A stretch of 64,000 nt of DNA from Octopus sinensis (Eukaryota), in NCBI RefSeq assembly GCF_006345805.1, contig NC_043003.1:83576001-83640000 (forward strand), read 5' to 3'. A program made the position numbers and the translations under genes. Numbering within the stretch: position 1 is the first letter of the stretch; every line of letters starts with the position of its first letter. Of this stretch, positions 13,303 to 44,156 are shown one piece after another. The notes under the pieces are model-generated. The model searched no databases, was not told where the DNA came from, and worked only from the letters and a program-made list of their open reading frames with translations.

Positions 13303-14458
13303 CTGAGAAACAGATAAGATAAAAATTAAGATTTCTATCACGTAGGTTGTACACTAGTTTTCTCTTTTCTCTCATTGTCAACATTGTGAATAGATATCTG
13401 CATATATACATGACCAAAACAAACGAAACACCCTATTGCACAGACATGTAGAAGACATTGAACATGTTTAAAGTAGAATCTAATATAAAATGATTATGCT
13501 TTTTGATATCAATGCCCCTAATCCAATGACAGAAACCACTTGTTTACAGTGATCTAAATGAAAAGCTGTCAAAATTTCGAGTTAATCTATGTTTCAAACA
13601 CCACTTCTAGATCAAGGGTGACTTGCGGGTTAAAGTGGTGAGATAACTAACAATAACAAGAAATCAATCAACTACAGATCCTTGATGTAATCATTCAAGC
13701 TGCTAGAAATATCAGCCAAATACGTCTCAAATGACATACTATTGTCTTGAAAACAGAGGGCTGCAATGGATAATATAGCCCTAGATACACAATGGTCAGA
13801 AGGATGCTGTAGTCATGGATGAAAAGCTTTGAATCATTTGTTTGCTCTTCTATTTTTCTTGTATTTTTTTTTAATCTTTTGTTACGTAGGGAGCGTAGAA
13901 GCTGTATTGTATCTGCCAGGAAAATCAAACAAAGTAGAGCTTTTATGTACACTACCCAGTGGTTAAGAAGTCATCCAGGGAACCTCTACATGGTGACTCA
14001 ACCTGTAGGAAATAATAGTCAAATGTCCCTCAAATCACATGACCATCAATAAAAAGTAAAACAAAAAGGAAGGAGACATTGGATTATGTAATCTTAGAAA
14101 CATCATCATCATCATTTAATGTTCACTTTTCGTTGTCATCGTCACCACCACTGCCACCATCATCATTTTTATGTCCACTTTTCCATGCTTGATTGGGTTG
14201 GACAGGATTTATTCAAGTGGATTTTCTACAGTCAGATGTCCTTCCTGTTGCCAACCCTTGCCTGTTTCCAAGCAAGTTAATATTGCTCCCACATGGCCAG
14301 AATATTGGAAAGCGGACGTTAAACGATGATGATGATGATGATGATGATGATAATGATATCCAAAATGATCTAATTTTCACCATGACAGCTGTACTGGTTG
14401 GTTAAAAAAAAAACAATGAAAACAAAATAAAATAGAAAAAACATCAAAGTCAACATAC

Positions 14459-14621
14459 CAACAAGGCTCTTAATAATTTTGGCAAATTCCATAACAGAAT
14501 GTTCTTCAGGGTTGCCAAGGTTGACTGGCTGAGAGTAATTGCTGTTCATTAAAGCAATAAGCCCATCTACCAAATCACTAACATACTGGAACGATCTAGT
14601 CTGTGTACCATCACCGTATAC
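14459..14621 (-). CDS. UXS1: UXS1 exon (VYGDGTQTRSFQYVSDLVDGLIALMNSNYSQPVNLGNPEEHSVMEFAKIIKSLV)
   Basis: 163 nt, aag acceptor and gtatg donor, phase 0 to 1. Confidence 0.95.
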
Positions 14622-14969
14622 CTTATAATATAAAAACAGGAAAGGAGGAGAATAAAACACCTGAGCCAAAATGAACACAGGAAAACTTGTACAATTACTC
14701 CAAAGTTGTAATATAATTTGGAGAAGAAATGTAATCTGCTAAAGGAATAGTGTGTATGTGAGAGAGAGAGAGAGAGGGAGGGAGGGAAGGAGAGAGAGAG
14801 AGAGAGTGAGTGTATAGGAAAAACACAACAGGTCTACTATCATATATAATAACAGGAGAACCAAAGTCAGCTGGGGGAAAATATGCATGCATGTCTATCA
14901 TCATCATCACCAAAAACAGTGGTCATGATGTTGATGACTGACTGACATGCATGGATACATACACACATA

Positions 14970-15467: not shown

Positions 15468-15559
15468 TTTTGTCCAAACATATAACAACCAAATAAGCAA
15501 ATACATATTCACACACACAGACAGGAACATGTTAAAACATATTATGTTATAAGACATAC

Positions 15560-15679
15560 CGTAATAGGTTCGTTCTGGAGAGCTTGCAAAATAAAGTTGC
15601 TCACAACACGGCCATCGTTCATGTGCATCCGGGGACCAAAAGTATTGAAAATTCTCGAAACACGCACTTCAAGGTTTTC
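15560..15679 (-). CDS. UXS1: UXS1 exon ([40 protein letters not shown])
   Basis: 120 nt, cag acceptor and gtatg donor, phase 0 to 0. Contains [10 protein letters not shown]. Confidence 0.96.
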
Positions 15680-16157
15680 CTGAAAATGTAAGAAGCTCCA
15701 GTTATTAATATTTTCCATAGAATAACCAACAGTGTGGAGAAGCAAAGATGGCAGGGTTCTAGTAGAGGGATGCTTTACAATATATACATTTGTGTTGTGT
15801 TTTGTCACAGAAGCTAAATCACTGACAGCCACAGTTGTGGTGGAAGCAGTGTGGAAGCTAGGTTTGGAATCAAAAGGCCTTAGAGTCAATGGTCATCTTT
15901 TCCATGTTCGCATGCACTGTTGCTGACCCTCATTTGCTTCCAAGCAAGACAATGTTTTCCCCTCTTTCACAGAACAAAAGGCAGCACTATGGCCTGGAAT
16001 ATTTTTGCAGCAGATTGCAATTGTATGATTGTAAATAAATGACAAATGACTCAGTTTATATGAACAATGACTTTGTTCTGAACCAGTGCACAAATGCCAA
16101 GACAAAGGCACCACTGAAACAGACACGTCCAGTCAGGGACACACACACACACATGTA

Positions 16158-21704: not shown

Positions 21705-21807
21705 TTGGACACATTAGATCCTGTCAAACCATTCAATTTATGTCAGCATGGAACATGAACATTAAATGATGATGATGATGATGATAATGGGACGGGCAAA
21801 TCCTTAC

Positions 21808-21988
21808 CTTCAATATATAATGGGTTGACAATATCATGGTGTAGCAATTCGAAGTTTTCATGCCCTATCCAGTGTTCAATATTTCGTTTGCGGCCAGTGA
21901 AAAAATTGTCAATGACAGTAACCTCATGTCCCTGGATCATTAAACGATCTACCAAATGGGAACCAACAAAACCTGCACCACCAGTTAT
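21808..21988 (-). CDS. UXS1: UXS1 exon (ITGGAGFVGSHLVDRLMIQGHEVTVIDNFFTGRKRNIEHWIGHENFELLHHDIVNPLYIE)
   Basis: 181 nt, ttttcag acceptor and gtaag donor, phase 0 to 1. Contains the NAD-binding GxxGxxG. Confidence 0.97.
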
Positions 21989-22934
21989 CTGAAAAAAGGC
22001 AATGAAAGGACAATTAAAATCCAAGATAAAACATCCAAGATAAAATATGGCAAGATAACACATGTACATATATACATAAATCTGATGTACATATATACAT
22101 TGCAAAATTTTTTCATTCTAGAAATTAACTAGTAACTAATGAGTAAATCAAATAACAAATTTATTTTAACTAATCATTTGATCAGCTTTATATAGGAAAG
22201 TATATGGCTGATTAAGTTGACACCCTGCCCACCTGTGTATAACTGGTACTTACTATATTAATTCCTAGAGCAGAACACAAAAGTCAATTCCCACAGGAAT
22301 TGAGCTTGAAGCTAAGTGTAAAACACGGGCCACTGTGAGTAAACTAAATTATATGTACCAATCAAATCTTGGAGTCTATACACCAGGAACTGCAGATGTG
22401 TCAGTTTCAGACCAAGCAGCTCTATTTTCTAATTATACCCTCTCTCTCTCACTCCCTCCCTCTCCCTCTCTCTTACACACACACATGCATGCAAGAGAGA
22501 AGAATAATAATGTATGAACCTGAACCTGAAAAGCTGACTTTAGTTTAGTCAGAGGACAATGGGATGTGGCCATGACCTCTTTGTGAATCCACCGTAACCG
22601 GTGGGAGAAAAGGAGGGATTTATTTACAAGCCAGACACTTGACTCAAATGCTTGCAACAGAGTAAATTCCATTAAAACCAAGTGACAGACTAAGTTTGCC
22701 ACTATTTGGATGACCTAAAGCTCAAAACAGCTGGACACTTATTTATGCAAACCTCAGATGGTGGGGAAACAATTAACAAACTTGATTATCCAACAAGTGA
22801 GGAGTGAGAGGAAGCGATACCAGAAACTAATTTGATGACCCAAGAAAGAACTACAGGTGCTATTACAGTTAATATGAAAGAATTATGCAACAAACTGCTA
22901 AACCACATGATTAAGAATTAAAAAAAACTCTTAC

Positions 22935-27339: not shown

Positions 27340-28195
27340 TTAAGCCTATATTTGGAATGTAACTCGACAAAAGTTTCTTGCATAAAAGTATTGAGTGTTT
27401 TTAATTTAAACATTTGAAAATATGTTTTGAATCAAGTAGACTGGTGTCAAAAGTGTTAAACTGATAAAATACAAGAACCTCTACCATCAAGTGGATATGT
27501 TGGCTATGATACCAGATGTTAGTGGTTTATTAAAATCACTTCTCAATTGAAATACTGAAGATAACAGCTGATAGTTGTTCATTTACTTTCATTTTAGATA
27601 TAATTCATAAAAATATAATTAGCTACAATTAGTAAAAAAGAACAGTGATAGTTTATGTATTTAAGCATTACTTTTTGATTAAGAAATCTGCTTTGCAACT
27701 ACAGTGTAATCTTAATGTACTATTCTGCACCTTCACCAAGAGTGTTCTATCAAAGCCTTAGCTTAACCAAAACCTTGCAAGCAAAATTTAAGACAGAAAC
27801 TGGGTGGAAGCCTGTGAAGGGACTTTTCTTGTTTTGGTATGGAAGACTTAGTCCATAGCCACCTTGGGTGCCTTTAGTGGAGTTAACTCTATTATAAGAA
27901 TTCAGGCTAAATCACCCTTTCTATTACCAACCACTCTTAGAGGAAATGAAACAGGTTATTGAAACTGGCCTTCTTTCTAACCTAAACCATAAAAATTTTT
28001 TCATCTTAAATTATTTGATTTTATTACAAGGCCAAACAAATAGAAAAGGAATGGTTTAAATGAGACAATATAATATGCCTTACAGTATTAAAATTTCACT
28101 ATATATATATATATATTTTTTTTTTAACAGAGTTCATGTCAATTATATGTAACTAAAAAATATATAATATATTAGATATAAAAACAATGTGTGAC

Positions 28196-28292
28196 GCTTA
28201 TTGCACCTAGGTTTCCCAAGCGGTCACCCATCTAAGTACTAAACTAGGCTCGACGTTGCTTAACTTCGGTGATCGGACGAGAATCGGTGCTT
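28196..28292 (-). pseudogene. 5'-truncated 5S rRNA retrocopy (approx. nt 23-119)
   Basis: Minus strand reads AAGCACCGATTCTCGTCCGATCACCGAAGTTAAGCAACGTCGAGCCTAGTTTAGTACTTAGATGGGTGACCGCTTGGGAAACCTAGGTGCAATAAGC. It has the 5S box A/C signatures and helix GCCUAG/CUAGGU. Confidence 0.92.
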
Positions 28293-28293
28293 A

Positions 28294-28475
28294 GGCACGT
28301 AAAAAGCACCCACTACACTCACGGAGTGGTTGGCGTTAGGAAGGGCATCCAGCTGTAGAAACACAGCCAGATCAGACTGGAGCCTGGTGCAGCCTCCTGG
28401 CTTCCCAGACCCCAGTCGAACCGCCCAACCTGTGCTAGCACGGAAAACGGACGTTAAATGATGATGATGATGATG
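28294..28475 (+). mobile_element. RTE 3' end fused to the 5S retrocopy
   Basis: ggcacgtaaaaagcacccac...gttaaatgatgatgatg. TSD ttagatataaaa at 28172-28183 and 28476-28487 encloses both parts. Confidence 0.9.
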
Positions 28476-29389
28476 TTAGATATAAAAGTTTATCAATGAT
28501 TACCAGCAAGATTTTAGAATTTTAAAAAATGTGATTTAAAAAATATTTTACAATAATCTGTATGTCATTCTGTAAAATTTGAATTATGTCTAATTAATAA
28601 ATATTAGATTGAAAGACATAACACTGCAGCTTGAAAATGCGGTAATGATCAGTATAGCTAAAAAAATTATAATAAATTCATTTGAACACTAAGACTTTAA
28701 AGTTTAGATTTAATACACAGCAAATTCAAAACAATGTTTATTTCTATTGTATTTCAAGAGTAACATATTCTTAAGAACATTTCGATGAAATAGGAACCAG
28801 GACTAGTAGATCAATCAGAAAACAGGAATTCTTGTCTGGCCCTTTTCAATGAAGATGATACTGGAGGAGGTTCTAGTTTATATCAACTCAGATAATAGTT
28901 TATTTAATAACTGCCATATTTTCAATAGATTTGATAGCTAATTAGGATTTTCCAAACTAGTAATGTTAGCAAAATAAATTCCAAAACATTGCAAAAGCAT
29001 TATTAGTGTTAAAATCACAAAAGTATGTTAGTATTACCAAAACATTAACCCACATGGAACAAATTCTGACTGCTATCATAAATTCTGATAACACAGGATT
29101 GCTATATGAAACTAAACATGAACACCATATATTGAAGTACAGTTTTAGAATGATAACTACTGACCATTAATGAAGAATAAGGCAACACTATCAACTTGAA
29201 CATTGGGAAATTCTCTCAACTTAGGGGTCACTTAAATCAGATAAGGTAGCAGCTTCTTAAAATGAACCAATTTTTTTTTTAGAATTTGTCTCAACTAATT
29301 AAATTTCAGTTTTTGCTAAAGAAATGGCATTAATCCATTCTCATCTTCACTTTGAAAGAATGTTGAAAATAACCAATTATTACTTCGTT

Positions 29390-32300
29390 ATATGTTGGCC
29401 AACAGTCAGGCGACACTGACGATTGCTTAAAACCACAACAAATTTGTTAGACTTAGTTTTTACAGAGAAGACTAATTTCAGCGATGAAACTACAGCAACT
29501 CAGGGAAACTAAGCCAGAACAACCTGCCATCCTCTACACACCATCATAAACTGCGAGCAGGGTACAAATTGTTGTCCTTAAATGCTCGCAGTTTATGCAA
29601 CAAAATACATTTGTTCAACGCCTACGTCAGAAGTGTTGACCCTGACTTCATCACTGTCACGGAAACATGGGTGCATTCCTTACTCTGTGATGGGGTTTTC
29701 AACATTACGGGGTACAACCTCTTCCGTAAGGACTGCACTAACCGCCATGGTGGTGGTGATGGTCTACGTTCGTTCAAATTTTTTGGTAATTCCTTGTGCC
29801 GATTTGAACGAATCACAAGAAGAAGTTTTTTTCTGTGACGTGCGTATGACCATGTCAACACTCCTGCTTGGCGTTGTTTATCGTCCCCCAAGTTACCATC
29901 GGGACACACAGCTTTGCAATGTCCTCCGAGCTGCTGCCAGGAAAACAGCCACTTTGTGTTTATTGCAGGCGATTTCAATCATCCTGAGATCGATTGGGAG
30001 ACCTTCCATTGGCCACAGAGTGCAAACGATTTTGTTGAGCTTGTGCTGGACTCAAACTGGTCACAAGTAGTCACCTCTCCAACAAGAGGCGACAACACCT
30101 TGGACCTGCTCTTCACCACAACTCCTGAAGCGGTTATCAATTGCACTACGGAGGAACCTCTAGGTGACTCTGATCATGCTATGATCATCGCCAATCTGGC
30201 TCTTGCGGGCAACAAAAACCTGAACCATCTCCAATCTGCTTCCTTCGATTGGAAGAGAGCAGATTGGAACCTGTACCACACTGAACTACAGCACCCAAAC
30301 TGGCGTGAATTCTACAACTCTGGAGATGTGAATACTATACTCCAGAGTATCCTGGACTCAATATGGGCAGCATGTGCAGCATCAGTGCCACGTAAACAAA
30401 AAAAAAGAACCGCCCCAAAAGGGCAATTTGGGAAACTTCAGCGGTCCGACTTGCCAGGAGGGAACGTCGGACTGCTGAACGGGAATACAGGTTGCATAAA
30501 TCAGACACCAACAGGAAGAAGCGGAATAAATCCTCCAACCATCTCAAGCAAGTGACAAAAAAAGCAGTGCTTGAATTTGAACAGTGCATAGCAGCCAATC
30601 CTGACAGCAAGGTTTTCTGGAAATATGTGCACTCAAAGCAGAGACCTCACTCTCCAGTGGGCCCTCTTCGCAACCCTCACACAAACCAGATCACTGACGA
30701 CCCCAAGGAATGCGCAGAACTCATTGCCGAGTGCTATGCAAACATATTCACTGTTGAAAGTCAAAATGTACCATCTTCACCAGCACTAACAGCAAACTCC
30801 ATAACAACTATGGAATTTACACCTGCAATGCTGCGACGTCACCTTCAAAATAAGCGCAACTATGCCTCCCCTGGTCTCGATGGAGTTACATACCTGCTTC
30901 TCAAACGTGGCAGGCACTTCCTTTTACACCAGCTTTCTATTTTCTTCCAGTACTGTCTCAACAATGGTGCTACTCCGGAGCAGTGGAAAACTGCCAGTGT
31001 CATTCCTCTGTTCAAAAAGGGCGACCGCACATCACCTGTCAACTATCGCCCAGTCAGTCTCACTAGCTGTATTGCAAAACTGATGGAATCGTGTGTCAGA
31101 GAAACACTCTGGAACTTCTGGAGCTCTCACAGTCTCATCCGACCCTCACAATATGGATTCGTCCCTAACTCCAGCTGCAGTGACCAGCTTGTCGAGTTCC
31201 TTGAGGACATTACTCAGATTACTGACAGTGGCTCATGGGTGGATGTTGTCTACCTTGACTTTGCTAAGGCTTTCAACTCTGTGCCACACAAAAGGCTTAT
31301 GGTGAAACTCTCTGCAATGGGTGTGGGGGATGACCTTTTTAACTGGTTGAAATCCTTCATCCTCAGCCGAAAGGAGGTAGTCACAGTTCTAGGACAGCAC
31401 TCTACACCATATGAGATGTCATCGGGTGTACCACAGGGATCTGTCCTTGGCCCCCTCTTGTTTGTGGCATACATTAACGACATAGATGCCAATTTAAAGA
31501 ATGCCACAGTATTGAAATATGCAGACAACATCAAGCTGTACCTTGAAATCAAGAGGACAGATCCTGATGTCTACAACTCTTTCCTGCAATCAGACCTAGA
31601 CACAATGCAGCAATGGATCACAGACTGGCAACTGAAACTGGCTGTGGACAAGTGTACCACCATGCATTTTGGGAGAAAAAACCCTGCGTTCACATACTCC
31701 CTCCACAACACTGATATCAAGAAATCCTCTTGCGAGCGTGACCTAGGCATCACTGTCAGCAGTGATTTGCGTTGGTCAAAGCATATCTCTAAGATTGTCA
31801 GGAAGGCTGAGGGTGTCTTGGCATCACTCAGCAGGTCTTTTGTTAGCCGCTCTCCAGCCATCTATTTAAAACTGTATACAGCTATGGTACGACCACACTT
31901 GGAATTCGCATCATCAGTTTGGAACCCCTATCTTGCACAGAACATTGACCTCCTGGAATCTGTCCAGAGACGTGCAACCAAACGCATACCCTCCATCAGA
32001 CACCTACCATATTCTGAGCGCCTTGTTTCCCTGGGCATGGATTCACTGAAGCTCCGGCGTTTGGCGACGGACTTGGTAAACACCCCAAGTTATCAACCAC
32101 CTCACCAACAACAACACTGAACACCTTTTTGATCTCCATGTGTCTAACACACGTGGACATGCCTACAAAGTCAGAAAACAATACAGCTCCCATGACTTTC
32201 GGAAACATTTTTTCACGCTCAGAGTTGCTGAAGCATGGAATAAACTGCCTGCGTCAGTTGTTGACTGCCATGACACTGCATCTTTTAAGGCCCTCATGCT

Positions 32301-32402
32301 TTCCGAAATCCGCCGAAACTTCACCTGATTATATATACACTTTAGATGAGTTGTAGTGCACCTGAGCACTGTACACAATTATTATTATTATTATTATTAT
32401 TA
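29390..32402 (+). mobile_element. CR1-group LINE, near-complete ORF2 (APE endonuclease + RT), inactivated
   Basis: EN motifs LNARSL, VTETW, VYRPP, AGDFN, TLDL, SDH. RT motifs PGLDG, NYRPVSL, QYGF, LDFAKAF, GVPQGSVLGP, YADN. About four frameshifts, stop at 32326-32328, short UTR and (TTA)n tail. The 5' boundary is approximate. Confidence 0.92.
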
Positions 32403-39765: not shown

Positions 39766-42700
39766 TCATCATCATCCTCATTTAACGTCCGCTTTCCATG
39801 CTAGCATGGGTTGGACGGTTCAACTGGAGTCTGGGGAGCCCGAAGGCTGCGCCAGGCCAGTTAGATCTGGCAGTGTTTCTACAGCTGGATGCCCTTCCTA
39901 ACGCCAACCACTCCGAGAGTGTAGTGGGTGATTTTATGTGCCACCGACACAGGTGCCAGACGAGGCTGGCGAACGGCCACGCTCGGATGGTGTTTTTATG
40001 TGCCACCGACACAAGTGCCAGATGAGGCTGGCGAACGGCCACGATCGGATGGTGTTTGTTACGTGCCCACAGCACGGACGCCAGTCGATGCGGTACTGGC
40101 TACGGCCACGTTCGGATGGTTTTCTTGTGTGCCACCGGCACTGGTACCACAAAGATACAAATTCCATTGATGTTCATCTATTTTGATTTGGTTTGATTTT
40201 CACTTGCCTCAACAGGTCTTCACAAGTGTCACATACTTGCCTCAACAGGTCTTCACAAGTGTCATAAGAAGGAAGGTATGCACAGGTAGACTGACTACGT
40301 CCCAGGTAGGGGCCACGGGTTATGGCCTGACTAGTCTTGCCGGGTCTTTGGATGGTGTTTTTATGTGCCACCAACACAGGTGCCAGATGAGGCTGGCGAA
40401 CGGCCACGCTCGGATGGTGTTTGTTACGTGCCCACAGCACGATGTGGTACTGGCTACCGCCACGTTCGGATGGTTTTCTTGTGTGCCACCGGCATTGGTA
40501 CCACAAAGATACAAATTCCATTGATGTTCATCTATTTTGATTTGTTTTGATTGGATTTGATTATGATTATGATTATGATTATTATTATTATTATTATTAT
40601 CATTATCACTTGCCTCAACAGGTCTTCACAAGTGTCATTTGATTTGATTAGATTAGCACTTGCCTCAACAGGTCTTCACAAGTGTCATTGATTGATTAGC
40701 ACTTGCCTCAACAGTCTTCACAAGTGTCATAGAAGGAAGGTATGCACAGGTGGACTGACTACGTCCCAGGAAGGGGCCACGGGCTATGGCCTGACTAGTC
40801 TTGCCGGGTCTTCGGACAGGTGCCAGATGAGGCTGGCGAACGGCCACGATCGGATGGCGTTTGTTATGTGCCCACAGCACGGAGGCCAGTCGATGCGGTA
40901 CTGGCTACAGCCACGTTCGAATGGTTTTCTTGTGTGCCACCGGCACTGGTACCACAGAGATACAGGTTCCATTGATGTTCATCCATTTTGATTTGTTTTG
41001 ATTTTTTGACTTGTTGATTTGTTGATTTTCACTTGCCTCAACAGGTCTTCACAAGTGTCACAAGAAGGAAGGTATGCACAGGTGGACTCCCAGGTAGGGG
41101 CCACCACGATCGGATGGTGTTTGTTATGTGCCCACATCACAGAGGCCAGTCGATGCGGTACTGGCTACGGCCACGTTCGGATGGTTTTCTTTTGTGCCAC
41201 CGGTACTGGTACCACAAAGATACAAATTCCATTGATGTTCATCTATTTTGATTTGGTTTGATTTGATTTGATTTTCACTTGCCTCAACAGGTCTACACAA
41301 GTGTCACACACTTGCCTCAACAGGTCTTCACAAGTGTCATAAGAAGGAAGGTATGCACAGGTGGACTGACTACGTCGCCGGGTCTTCGGATGGTGTTTTT
41401 ATGTGCCCGACACAGGTGCCAGATGAGGCTGGCGAACGGCCACGATCAGATGGTGTTTGTTGTGCCCACAGCACGGAGGCCAGTCGATGCGGTACTGGCT
41501 ACGGCCACGTTCGGATGGTTTTCTTGTGTGCCACCGGTACTGGAACCACAAAGATACAAATTCCATTGATGTTCATCTATTTTGATTTGGTTTGATTTGA
41601 TTTTCACTTGCCTCAACAGGTCTTCACAAGTGTCACACACTTGCCTCAACAGGTCTCCACAAGTGTCACACACTTGCCTCTGCCTCAACAGGTCTTCACA
41701 AAGTGTCACACACTTGCCTCTGCCTCAACAGGTCTTCACAAGTGTCACACACTTGCCTCAACAGGTCTTCACAAGTGTCATAAGAGGGAAGGTATGCACA
41801 GGTGGACTGACTACGTCGCCGGGTCTTCGGATGGTGTTTTTATGTGCCACCGACACAGGTGCCAGATGAGGCTGGCGAACGGCCACAATCGGATGGTGTT
41901 TGTTGTGCCCACAGCACGGAGGCCAGTCGATGCGGCACTGGCCACGGCCACGCTCGGGTGGCCCTCCCGCGTGCCACCGGCACCGGTACCACAAAGATAC
42001 AATTCCATTGATGTTCATCTATTTTGATTTGTTTTGATTTGATTTTCACTTGCCTCAACAGGTCTTCATAAGTGTCACAAGAAGGAAGGTATGCACAGGA
42101 GGACTGACTACGTCCCAGGTAGGGGCCACGGGTTATGGCCTGACTAGTCTTGCCGGGTCTTCTCACGCACAGCATACTTCCATAGGTCTCGGTCTCTAGA
42201 CATTTCCTTAGTGAGACCTAAAGTTCGAAGGTCGTGCTTCACCACTTCGTCCCAGGTTTTCCTGGGTCTACCTCTTCCACAGGTTCCCTCAACTGCTAGG
42301 GTGTAGCACTTTTGCACACAACTATCTTCAGCCTTTCTCGTCACATGACCATACCAGCGCAGCCGTCTCTCTTGCACACCACAACTGACGCTTCTTAGGT
42401 TCAACTTTTCTCTCAAGGAACTTACACTCTGACGATTATGAACACTGACATTACACATCCATCGGAGCATACTGGCTTCATTTCTTGCGAGCTTACGCAT
42501 ATCCTCAGCAGTCACGGCCCATGTTTCACTACCATGTAGCATGGCTGTACGTACACATGCATCATACAGTCTGCCTTTCACTCTGAGCGAGAGGCCTTTT
42601 GTCACCAGCAGGGGTAAGAGCTCTCTAAACTTTGCCCAGGCTATTTTTACTCTAGCAGTTACACTTTCAGCACACCCACCCCCGCTACTGACTTGGTCTC

Positions 42701-44156
42701 CTAGGTAGCGGAAGCTATCAACTACTTCTAGTTTGTCTCCCTGGAACGTGGCAGAAGTTGGTCTCTGCACATTTCCAGTGTTTATTGCTCCTGAGCATTT
42801 GCCACAGACAAAAACTATTTTCCTAGTTAGCCTTCCTTTGACATTGCTGCACCTCTTATGTGTCCATAGCTTACACTTGGTGCATCTTATAGAGTTTCTA
42901 CCTACACCTTTTTTACAGATCGAGCAGGGCCATCTACCTGAAGGCGTTTGTGATTGATCTACCTTCCTACTTATTAGGACTTTGGTTTTGGCTAGGTTGA
43001 TTCTAAGGCCCTTCGATTCTAATCCTTGTTTCCACACCTGAAACTTCTCCTCCAGTTCTGATAGTGACTCAGCAATTAGAGCAAGGTCATCAGCATAGAG
43101 GAGCTCCCAGGGGCAACCTGTCTTGAATTCCTCCGTTATTGCCTGGAGGACTATGATAAATAGGAGGGGACTGAGGACTGAACCTTGGTGGACCCCAACC
43201 TCTACCCGGAATTCTTCACTGTACTCGTTGCCAACCCTCACCTTACTAGCAGCGTCTCTGTACATGGCTTGCACAGCTCTCACCAACCATTCATCTATCC
43301 CTAGTTTCCTCATTGACCACCAGATAAGGGATCGGGGGACCCTGTCAAAGGCTTTCTCCAAGTCAACAAAAGCCAGGTACAAGGGCTTATCTTTGGCTAG
43401 GTATTTCTCCTGCAGCTGTCTTACCAGGAATATAGCATCAGTAGTACTTTTCCCTGGCACGAACCCAAACTGCATATCATCTAAGCTAACTCTCTCTCTA
43501 ATTAGTTGGGCTATAACCCTCTCCGTAACCTTCATTACCTGATCCAGCAGCTTGATGCCCCTGTAGTTATTTGTCTCTAGGGCGTCGCCTTTACCTTTGT
43601 AGCAGTTGACTATTATGCTGCTACACCAGTCATTGGGTATGACCCCCTCGTGTATCACCTGGTTAACTATACGGGTGACTAAGCTATAGCCGACACCACC
43701 AGATATTTTGAGCATCTCTGCAGTAATTCCTGATGGGCCTGGGGCTTTCCCTGTTTTCATGCTTCTAATTGCCTTATCTACTAAGGAACTGTTAACTCGG
43801 ATTGCTGGTCCCTCTGTTGGGTCGACATTAGGCAGACTCTCTTCATCCCATTCATTTTCTTCATTCAGCAACCTATCATAGTGGCGTCTCCAAGCCTCTC
43901 TCTTTGCATCCTCATTAAGCGCAAGTGAACCGTCATCCTTGCGAACACATTTCTCTCCTACCACGTCACGATTCTCTCTCACACACTGTCTTGCAACACG
44001 AAATACCTCAAGTCTTTCATCCTCACGACGCAGGACATTGGCAAATTTTTCCTTATCTGCCTCCCCTCTGGCTAGATAGACCTGTCTCCTGGCTTCCCTT
44101 CTGGCAGACTGATACACTTCCCTGCTACCACCGTTCTTCCAGGCCTTCCAAGCCTG
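39766..44156 (-). mobile_element. Young 5'-truncated RTE LINE with greatly expanded 3' UTR
   Basis: Open ORF at 42144-44156, reiterated UTR at 39930-42143, (GAT)n tail at 39766. The 5' end abuts (TA)n. Confidence 0.93.
42144..44156 (-). CDS. RTE reverse transcriptase ORF (5'-truncated, no endonuclease) with PHD-type finger insert
   Basis: 657 aa in the track, and the frame stays open to 44156. Motifs KAPGPSG, NYRGIKLL, QFGF, VDLEKAFD, GVHQGSVLSP, YADD, FRYLG, RLRWYGHV, RGRPRKTW. Confidence 0.92.
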   Translation of the reverse strand, partial: QAWKAWKNGGSREVYQSARREARRQVYLARGEADKEKFANVLRREDERLEVFRVARQCVRENRDVVGEKCVRKDDGSLALNEDAKREAWRRHYDRLLNEENEWDEESLPNVDPTEGPAIRVNSSLVDKAIRSMKTGKAPGPSGITAEMLKISGGVGYSLVTRIVNQVIHEGVIPNDWCSSIIVNCYKGKGDALETNNYRGIKLLDQVMKVTERVIAQLIRERVSLDDMQFGFVPGKSTTDAIFLVRQLQEKYLAKDKPLYLAFVDLEKAFDRVPRSLIWWSMRKLGIDEWLVRAVQAMYRDAASKVRVGNEYSEEFRVEVGVHQGSVLSPLLFIIVLQAITEEFKTGCPWELLYADDLALIAESLSELEEKFQVWKQGLESKGLRINLAKTKVLISRKVDQSQTPSGRWPCSICKKGVGRNSIRCTKCKLWTHKRCSNVKGRLTRKIVFVCGKCSGAINTGNVQRPTSATFQGDKLEVVDSFRYLGDQVSSGGGCAESVTARVKIAWAKFRELLPLLVTKGLSLRVKGRLYDACVRTAMLHGSETWAVTAEDMRKLARNEASMLRWMCNVSVHNRQSVSSLREKLNLRSVSCGVQERRLRWYGHVTRKAEDSCVQKCYTLAVEGTCGRGRPRKTWDEVVKHDLRTLGLTKEMSRDRDLWKYAVREKTRQD

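What the first reader, a model, noticed from the sequence alone, without database searches (positions are those of the whole stretch)
28172..28487. Antisense 5S rRNA-RTE chimera inside one TSD: possible twin priming on two different RNAs
Seen: a 12-bp direct repeat (ttagatataaaa, 28172-28183 and 28476-28487) encloses a minus-strand 5'-truncated 5S copy joined 5'-to-5' with a plus-strand RTE 3' end. The 5S has a 3' trailer GTCACACATTG followed by T5, and those Ts overlap the A-run at the end of the left TSD. Established: typical template-switch chimeras such as U6-L1 are co-oriented, and twin priming normally inverts part of the same RNA. Inference: the bottom-strand nick primed on RTE RNA while the top-strand ...AAAA end primed on the oligo(U) end of an untrimmed or read-through Pol III 5S transcript, and the two cDNAs were then joined. 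This would be an unusual trans twin-priming product for an RTE-clade enzyme.
Basis: partly seen in the sequence, partly recalled or inferred. Interest (0 to 1): 0.75.

Follow-up and report, generated by a model that had tools for sequence, protein, structure and literature searches.

The report
Backward 5S RNA captured by retrotransposon
A backward copy of an unprocessed 5S ribosomal RNA and the tail end of a jumping gene sit head to head inside one 12-base duplicated site, likely because both ends of one DNA cut primed reverse copying of two different RNAs, an accident already described for mammalian L1 and seen here with a likely RTE-type element.

Summary
An exact 12-bp repeat encloses antisense 5S (nt 23-118, trailer, T5 overlapping the repeat's A4), joined 5'-to-5' with 182 bp of a (GAT)n-tailed LINE 3' end. 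The junction pattern hits once in the genome. The trailer is likely a real pre-5S end: 27 exact pattern hits, none gene-like; no assembled gene was found with it. Of 252 dispersed 5S rows examined, 231 are co-oriented fusions to SINE or LINE tails; only this one has the inverted, repeat-flanked form. Best reading (0.72): one insertion by twin priming in trans. Cautions: this LINE rarely leaves long duplications here (0 of 25 reach 8 bp), the junction repeats the first four target bases (TTAG), and no empty allele was read. The mechanism is published for L1 with U5, 5S and tRNA. New are the non-L1 partner and priming at the intact oligo-U end. The scan noted similar inverted captures before on other DNA (18S, 28S, tRNA; unreviewed). 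A clean variant of a known accident, likely a dead one-off.

The parts
28172..28183 (+). Left copy of the 12-bp target-site duplication; its last four A are also the last four T of the 5S U-run on the minus strand
28180..28195 (-). 3' trailer of a pre-5S transcript (GTCACACATTG) plus T5; likely priming site for the top-strand A-run
   Evidence: sequence; trailer family has 27 exact pattern hits; T-run after this trailer varies from 0 to 6 in 47 copies
28196..28292 (-). 5'-truncated 5S rRNA retrocopy, nt 23-118 of the genome's 5S; 3 of 111 positions differ from the majority of 20 same-trailer copies
28291..28294 (+). 5'-to-5' junction: TT (5S), one extra A, G (LINE); together TTAG, equal to the first four bases of the duplication
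   Evidence: chance of such a match 6 of 342 mismatched pairs
28294..28475 (+). 3' end of a (GAT)n-tailed LINE (RT plus PHD finger ORF upstream in longer copies; likely RTE clade), ending in (GAT)5G; 4 of 173 positions differ from the majority of 29 close copies
28476..28487 (+). Right copy of the 12-bp target-site duplication, flush with the LINE tail

Best explanation
An antisense, trailer-bearing 5S copy and a LINE 3' end lie head to head inside one 12-bp duplication, likely written in one event by twin priming on two different RNAs. Shown: the geometry, the single copy, similar divergence of both halves, and that 5S RNA with trailer is a frequent co-oriented partner of this LINE and of SINEs in this genome. 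Inferred: a 12-nt staggered break was made; the bottom-strand 3' end primed reverse transcription at the LINE's (GAU)n tail; the top-strand end (AAAA-3') paired with the oligo-U end of an untrimmed Pol III 5S transcript and primed a second reaction; both cDNAs stopped early (182 nt and about 110 nt) and were joined through 0-1 nt of homology with one extra base. Not resolved: which endonuclease cut, this LINE's or that of the LINE that moves the SINE family with 12-15 bp duplications. The product lacks 5S nt 1-22 and any ORF and is likely inert.
For: Both outer ends are flush with an exact 12-bp repeat. The U-run overlaps the target A-run, as a primed 3' end would. The halves are equally diverged, 2.7% and 2.3%. 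The junction is single-copy. 5S RNA with trailer is a common substrate at insertion sites: 213 of 252 dispersed rows are fused to SINE heads or short tails and 18 of 252 to this LINE, co-oriented, with varied trailers. Stand-alone 5S copies, needed for a two-step history, are rare: no other row of the 252 has a U-run flush with a repeat that also bounds the copy. L1 inversions carry long duplications of 10-20 bp, argued to be needed for the second priming (PMC4245944; PMC2912911), and RTE duplications peak at 10-12 bp in vertebrates (as cited in PMC4245944 and PMC6007223). Two other loci show un-nested head-to-head 5S junctions with 4 and 2 nt of microhomology (L276, L287), though without a readable duplication.
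Against: This LINE rarely leaves long duplications here: 0 of 25 non-microsatellite copies reach 8 bp, and the spread is close to the mismatched-pair null (0 of 18 other copies); among 17 co-oriented 5S-LINE chimeras one has an exact 8-bp duplication and one a 14-nt match inside an (AT)n run. The junction TTAG equals the start of the duplication; such a match arises in 6 of 342 random pairings and is what a later LINE insertion with a 4-bp duplication would leave. A single RNA already joining 5S and LINE would give the same product. The excess of flush head-to-head junctions is weak (5 of 231 in the first 20-nt bin against about 2 per bin, three flush cases nested). No empty allele was read, and no listed contig bridges the 5S-LINE junction. 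No assembled gene carries this exact trailer.
Confidence: 0.72

Rival explanations
1. Ordinary cis twin priming on one chimeric RNA: a co-oriented 5S-U-run-LINE RNA (a ligation product, or Pol III read-through of a genomic co-oriented chimera) was primed at its tail by the bottom strand and at its internal U-run by the top-strand A-run.
For: It predicts the same DNA. Co-oriented 5S-LINE chimeras exist (18 of 252), many with a full internal promoter and short T-runs. Three share nearly the same trailer and junction (L094, L104, L156), which could mean such RNAs are made and copied.
Against: No source locus found: among the 18, those with this trailer carry only about 50-60 nt of LINE, and those with 180 nt or more have other trailers. 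At least four U are needed in the RNA, which normally ends Pol III transcription (recalled). Ligation to full-length SINE heads is unlikely for triphosphate 5' ends (recalled), so template jumping explains the co-oriented class better. Mutated or unassembled sources would be missed.
Confidence: 0.12
2. Two insertions in sequence: a stand-alone 5S retrocopy with a 12-bp duplication and 2-nt (TT) microhomology at its 5' end came first; the LINE later inserted exactly at that 5' junction with a 3-4 bp duplication (TTA or TTAG).
For: Explains TTAG without coincidence. Fits the short duplications of this LINE and the long ones of the SINE-B-type machinery (4 of 21 at 12 bp or more; L035 15 bp). Nested insertion is common here (L225, L300, L309).
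Against: Needs a rare stand-alone 5S copy (none with a bounding duplication among the other 251 rows) and a second hit on the same few bases and strand at a similar time. With 6 LINE tails in this 64-kb window and at most about ten stand-alone copies, I estimate well under 0.01 such loci per genome (inference). Both halves are equally diverged.
Confidence: 0.1
3. Later inversion of the 5S half of a co-oriented chimera, repair capture of cDNA fragments at a break, or an assembly error.
For: No listed contig bridges the inner junction.
Against: An inversion would need base-exact breaks and a chance A4 match to the right repeat. Contigs of run X18 cover left flank into 5S (27700-28212) and LINE tail into right flank (28449-28900); X19 and X3 (another study, 2 differences and a 9-nt gap) carry the LINE tail-right flank join. 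X18 shows no differences and may not be independent.
Confidence: 0.06

Closest known systems
Inverted snRNA/L1 chimeras by twin priming (U5, U1, U2, U6; Doucet et al. 2015, PMC4476161; passages seen)
   Same: Small RNA in opposite orientation to a 5'-truncated LINE inside one duplication; complementarity between the top-strand end and the small RNA; same model.
   Different: There the small RNAs are 3'-truncated and primed internally, and the LINE is L1. The paper states that L2 and RTE LINEs form only template-switch chimeras with U6. Here the 3' end is intact with trailer and U-run, the 5' end is cut, and the LINE is likely RTE.
Antisense 5S/LINE-1 and tRNA/LINE-1 chimeras (Law and Burns 2026, PMC13174262; passages seen; one supplement passage; Table S2 rows not seen)
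   Same: 5S antisense to the LINE, 5'-to-5' junction, 7-17 bp duplications in 20 of 27, twin priming proposed.
   Different: Human 5S parts commonly start at nt 1 at the junction and stop at nt 46 or 90; antisense is the rule. Here the piece runs from nt 23 to the precursor end, and antisense is the rare exception against 231 co-oriented rows.
Cis twin priming of L1 (Ostertag and Kazazian 2001, seen only as cited; described in PMC2912911 and PMC4245944, passages)
   Same: Two primed ends, inverted 5' segment, long duplication, short homology at the top-strand junction.
   Different: One RNA; reported nearly only for L1 in human cells, with one Nimb-2 case in PMC4245944.
Co-oriented U6/LINE and U6/SINE template-switch chimeras, including U6/RTEX in anole (PMC4476161)
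   Same: Matches the large co-oriented 5S class in this genome, which supplies the context.
   Different: The window copy is not co-oriented and its U-run joins target DNA, not the retroposon.

Membership tests
Trans twin-priming chimera (small RNA/LINE) | Two RNA-derived parts in opposite orientation, joined 5'-to-5' | tested here: met
Trans twin-priming chimera (small RNA/LINE) | One target-site duplication around both parts | tested here: met
   exact 12-mer flush at both ends; 0 of 2,000,000 random pairs
Trans twin-priming chimera (small RNA/LINE) | Complementarity between the top-strand 3' end and the captured RNA | tested here: met
   A4 of the repeat is T4 of the U-run
Trans twin-priming chimera (small RNA/LINE) | Both parts inserted at once (only empty or complete alleles) | tested here: inconclusive
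   equal divergence; runs X3, X18, X19 carry the LINE-flank join; organism C contig not readable at the site
Trans twin-priming chimera (small RNA/LINE) | Two separate RNA templates rather than one fused RNA | tested here: inconclusive
   no source locus among 18 co-oriented 5S-LINE chimeras; RNA ligation cannot be seen in DNA
RTE-clade LINE | 3' end belongs to an autonomous non-LTR element with reverse transcriptase | tested here: met
   L027 joins this 3' end to an ORF with RVT_1 and PHD; window ORF 42144-44156 RVT_1 E 1.6e-32, best solved relatives L1 ORF2p and R2
RTE-clade LINE | Short tandem-repeat 3' tail instead of poly(A) | tested here: met
   (GAT)n in 78 tails
RTE-clade LINE | RT phylogeny groups with named RTE elements | not testable with these tools
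   no named reference set; the four supplement files searched for PMC9115989 gave no sequence match; Atlas names are automatic. The C-terminal motifs look RTE-like from recall only
RTE-clade LINE | Single ORF with AP endonuclease before the RT | not tested
   the window copy is cut before the endonuclease region; no full-length copy was fetched
RTE-clade LINE | Duplications of 7-15 bp (typical trait, as cited in PMC6007223) | tested here: not met
   0 of 25 ordinary copies reach 8 bp, one reaches 7; 1 of 17 chimeras has 8 bp
5S-derived SINE (SINE3) or amplified composite family | Many copies with the same junction; 5S head co-oriented with the tail | tested here: not met
   one hit; antisense and 5'-truncated
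Template-switch (co-oriented) chimera | Small RNA in the same orientation, its 3' end joined to the retroposon | tested here: not met
   contrast with 231 of 252 rows

The most novel reading that the evidence does not exclude
A non-L1, RTE-type reverse transcriptase primes directly on the oligo-U end of nascent Pol III transcripts at the second end of a break, possibly a break cut by a different LINE's endonuclease (the one giving 12-15 bp duplications), so that two RNAs and two enzymes share one insertion; L276 and L287 would be further cases, making trans twin priming a recurring, roughly 1% side route of 5S capture outside mammals.
Probability: 0.3. Interest if true: 0.55.

Novelty: new variant of a known kind. 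Interest (0 to 1): 0.33.

Why it matters
If right, it is a counter-example to the published statement that L2 and RTE LINEs capture small RNAs only by template switching (PMC4476161), and it shows second-end priming on the intact oligo-U end of a 5S precursor rather than on an internal loop. It makes a testable prediction: second-end priming needs a long overhang, so inverted chimeras should carry long duplications even in a family whose normal insertions do not. The surrounding class of hundreds of 5S fusions also records 3' trimming intermediates of pre-5S RNA and 5S genes that are gone or unassembled. The locus itself likely has no function.

Tried and rejected
Amplified composite or 5S-derived SINE: rejected. 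Source gene for the trailer: not found. The array units seen at G000:C4:131.78-131.98 Mb and the genes at C4:135.79 Mb and C5:50.22 Mb have other trailers; patterns gave only dispersed copies. Empty allele: one search showed no skip joint among the 15 listed (174 not shown; repeats swamp the table). Runs with shares of 0.11-0.18 were not used as evidence unless laid. A genome-wide count of inverted junctions was not obtained; the census is a sample from short 5S patterns. A first orientation scan with an untrimmed library gave many false antisense calls and was discarded for a trimmed one. L202 (antisense LINE tail 32 nt upstream, no duplication) and L033 (25 nt gap) were not counted as head-to-head. 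Folding the LINE piece gave no significant structure (z -1.71). Clade naming through solved structures, Pfam, the Atlas and a supplement search gave no RTE label.

Full report
Setting. The window is G000:C7:83576001-83640000 of a 2.72-Gb animal assembly. Earlier scan notes call it a likely octopus genome; I did not test this. The site lies in AT-rich DNA with no other library repeat between 27344 and 29845.

Observation. The 12-mer TTAGATATAAAA stands at 28172-28183 and 28476-28487. On the minus strand, 28292-28196 is nt 23-118 of this genome's 5S, followed by the trailer GTCACACATTG and five T, four of which are the A-run of the left repeat. After one extra A (28293) comes the last 182 bp of a LINE ending in (GAT)5G. 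No random pair of local flank positions gave such a repeat in 2,000,000 draws. The junction pattern hits only this locus, and none of the other 39 scored hits extends into the 5S part.

The LINE. Longer copies join this 3' end to an ORF with reverse transcriptase and a PHD finger (L027); a 670-residue stretch of a similar ORF lies in the window at 42144-44156. The tail is (GAT)n in 78 copies. The RTE label rests on recalled motifs and the tail type; no call gave it. RTE families are reported as active in octopus (PMC9115989, passages and section 6; PMC13282606, passages), but I could not compare sequences; four of that first paper's supplement files were not searched.

The trailer. The 5S arrays seen have other trailers and a different base near nt 61. 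The trailer family of the window has 27 exact pattern hits, all dispersed, none in a gene cluster; two further patterns found no gene either. A divergent gene pair at C5:50.22 Mb has a related trailer (L169). The T-run after this trailer varies from 0 to 6 in 47 copies, as expected if RNAs caught during 3' trimming were copied. So the trailer is likely a real precursor end from a gene that is lost, changed or unassembled (inference).

Census of dispersed 5S copies. One 24-mer alone has 263 exact hits. From nine searches I fetched and examined 252 dispersed rows; array and gene rows were dropped first, and the rows include a few duplicated segments and one split copy. 213 are followed, co-oriented, by a SINE head or short tail, 18 by this LINE's 3' end, 4 by coding-looking sequence that matched only library entries cut from those same loci, and 17 were unassigned, most showing a short SINE piece by eye. 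Trailers and partners vary, so these are separate events, as earlier scan notes also concluded. The sample favours copies with an intact 3' part; 11 extra copies picked by a 5' pattern on C1-C4 also reached nt 100 or beyond, so the human-type 3'-truncated form was sampled thinly. Six rows had a direct repeat starting in a T-run; only the window's bounds the copy and an antisense partner, the other five being duplicated segments or neighbouring repeats. Antisense elements ending within the first 20-nt bin upstream numbered 5 of 231 against about 2 per bin. L225, L300 and L309 are nested in older elements. L276 and L287 are un-nested head-to-head junctions with 4 and 2 nt of microhomology but no readable duplication. 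They are suggestive only.

Duplication lengths. Of 78 LINE tails, 29 were dropped (chimeras, 5' end not reached, locus cut) and 24 lie in microsatellites; of the 25 left none reaches 8 bp, and the spread is close to the null (0 of 18 in a second pass). Among 17 co-oriented 5S-LINE chimeras with a tail, one has an exact 8-bp duplication. Partners of another SINE type carry 12-15 bp duplications in 4 of 21 and in L035. The 12-bp repeat is thus atypical for this LINE. Either second-end priming preserves a long overhang that is normally trimmed, as argued for L1 inversions (PMC4245944 and PMC2912911, passages), or another LINE's endonuclease made the break. I cannot choose between these.

The junction echo. 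Bases 28291-28294 read TTAG, the start of the duplication. TT is 5S and G is LINE; the A is extra, where both the 5S gene and most close LINE copies would give T. A 4-nt match so placed occurs in 6 of 342 mismatched pairings. It favours a two-step history by perhaps tenfold, but that history needs a rare stand-alone 5S copy and a second hit on the same bases, which I estimate at well under 0.01 loci per genome (inference). A short templated fill-in during joining would also leave the echo within one event (inference).

Age and alleles. The 5S half differs from its family majority at 3 of 111 positions, the LINE half at 4 of 173. Contigs of X18 cover both outer junctions, X19 and X3 the right one; X18 shows no differences and may not be independent. 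No listed contig bridges the inner junction, and no empty allele could be read.

Mechanism and rivals. Most likely (0.72) one insertion with twin priming on two RNAs. Cis twin priming on a fused 5S-LINE RNA gives the same DNA (0.12); no source locus was found. Two sequential insertions 0.10; inversion, repair capture or error 0.06.

Known art. Twin priming on a second RNA is proposed for snRNA/L1 chimeras, and that paper says L2 and RTE LINEs form only template-switch chimeras (PMC4476161, passages). Human 5S/L1 chimeras are typically antisense and 3'-truncated (PMC13174262, passages; Table S2 rows not seen). Eight searches of the held library (listings, with passages read from seven papers) showed no report of an inverted small-RNA/RTE chimera or of 5S fusions in cephalopods; subscription papers such as Ichiyanagi and Okada 2008 were seen only as cited. 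The scan itself has noted like events on other DNA: antisense 18S with an RTE tail in another genome, antisense tRNA and 28S pieces with SINEs in this one (unreviewed, not tested here).

Verdict. Real, single-copy, likely inert. A new variant of a known kind: non-L1 partner, priming at the precursor's oligo-U end. Interest 0.33.

Noticed in passing
G000 genome-wide, loci L032-L326: 231 of 252 dispersed 5S rows are co-oriented fusions of trailer-bearing 5S to SINE heads, short tails or this LINE; LINE breakpoints cluster (7 of 18 about 50-65 nt from the tail, 3 at about 140 nt).
   Followed up: yes
full-length dispersed 5S copies, e.g. L041, L059, L090, L285: 32 of 77 full-length copies have G directly before nt 1 and 25 of 77 have ATG, whereas array genes have T there; possibly untemplated addition or a jump onto an RNA ending in AUG.
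   Followed up: partly
L094, L104, L156: Three co-oriented chimeras share almost the same trailer and LINE junction; a nascent 5S-headed family or a hot spot. No shared private variants stood out in the alignment.
   Followed up: partly
L276 (about 990-1290) and L287 (893-1300): Un-nested head-to-head junctions between an antisense retroposon and a 5S-plus-tail fusion, with 4 and 2 nt microhomology; candidate three-RNA insertions without a readable duplication.
   Followed up: partly
L045 (about 1250-1850): A 5S copy with trailer and T9 sits alone at the centre of a long inverted repeat of about 200-nt arms, with 7 nt shared between the arm and the 5S 5' end.
   Followed up: no
L169 (G000:C5:50223000-50224100): A divergent pair of 5S genes outside the main array, each with its own trailer resembling dispersed trailer families.
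   Followed up: partly
G000:C4:131.78-131.98 Mb and 135.79 Mb: 5S arrays with mixed orientation, about 500-bp units in part, and many different trailers.
   Followed up: partly
window 42144-44156 (-): 670-residue uninterrupted ORF piece of the (GAT)n LINE type with a PHD finger inserted after the RT core; cut at its 5' side by an (AT)n run.
   Followed up: partly
window 14370-14738, 15542-15892, 21743-22117 (-): Exon-like stretches that resemble UDP-glucuronate decarboxylase (recalled, not searched); the finding lies about 6 kb upstream of the first of them on that strand.
   Followed up: no
window 29488-32356 (+): A broken endonuclease plus RT element of another LINE type (CR1-like by recall), 1 kb right of the finding.
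   Followed up: no
L003 (about 1170-2720): Two copies of the (GAT)n LINE of different age lie head to head; nested or twin origin not examined.
   Followed up: no
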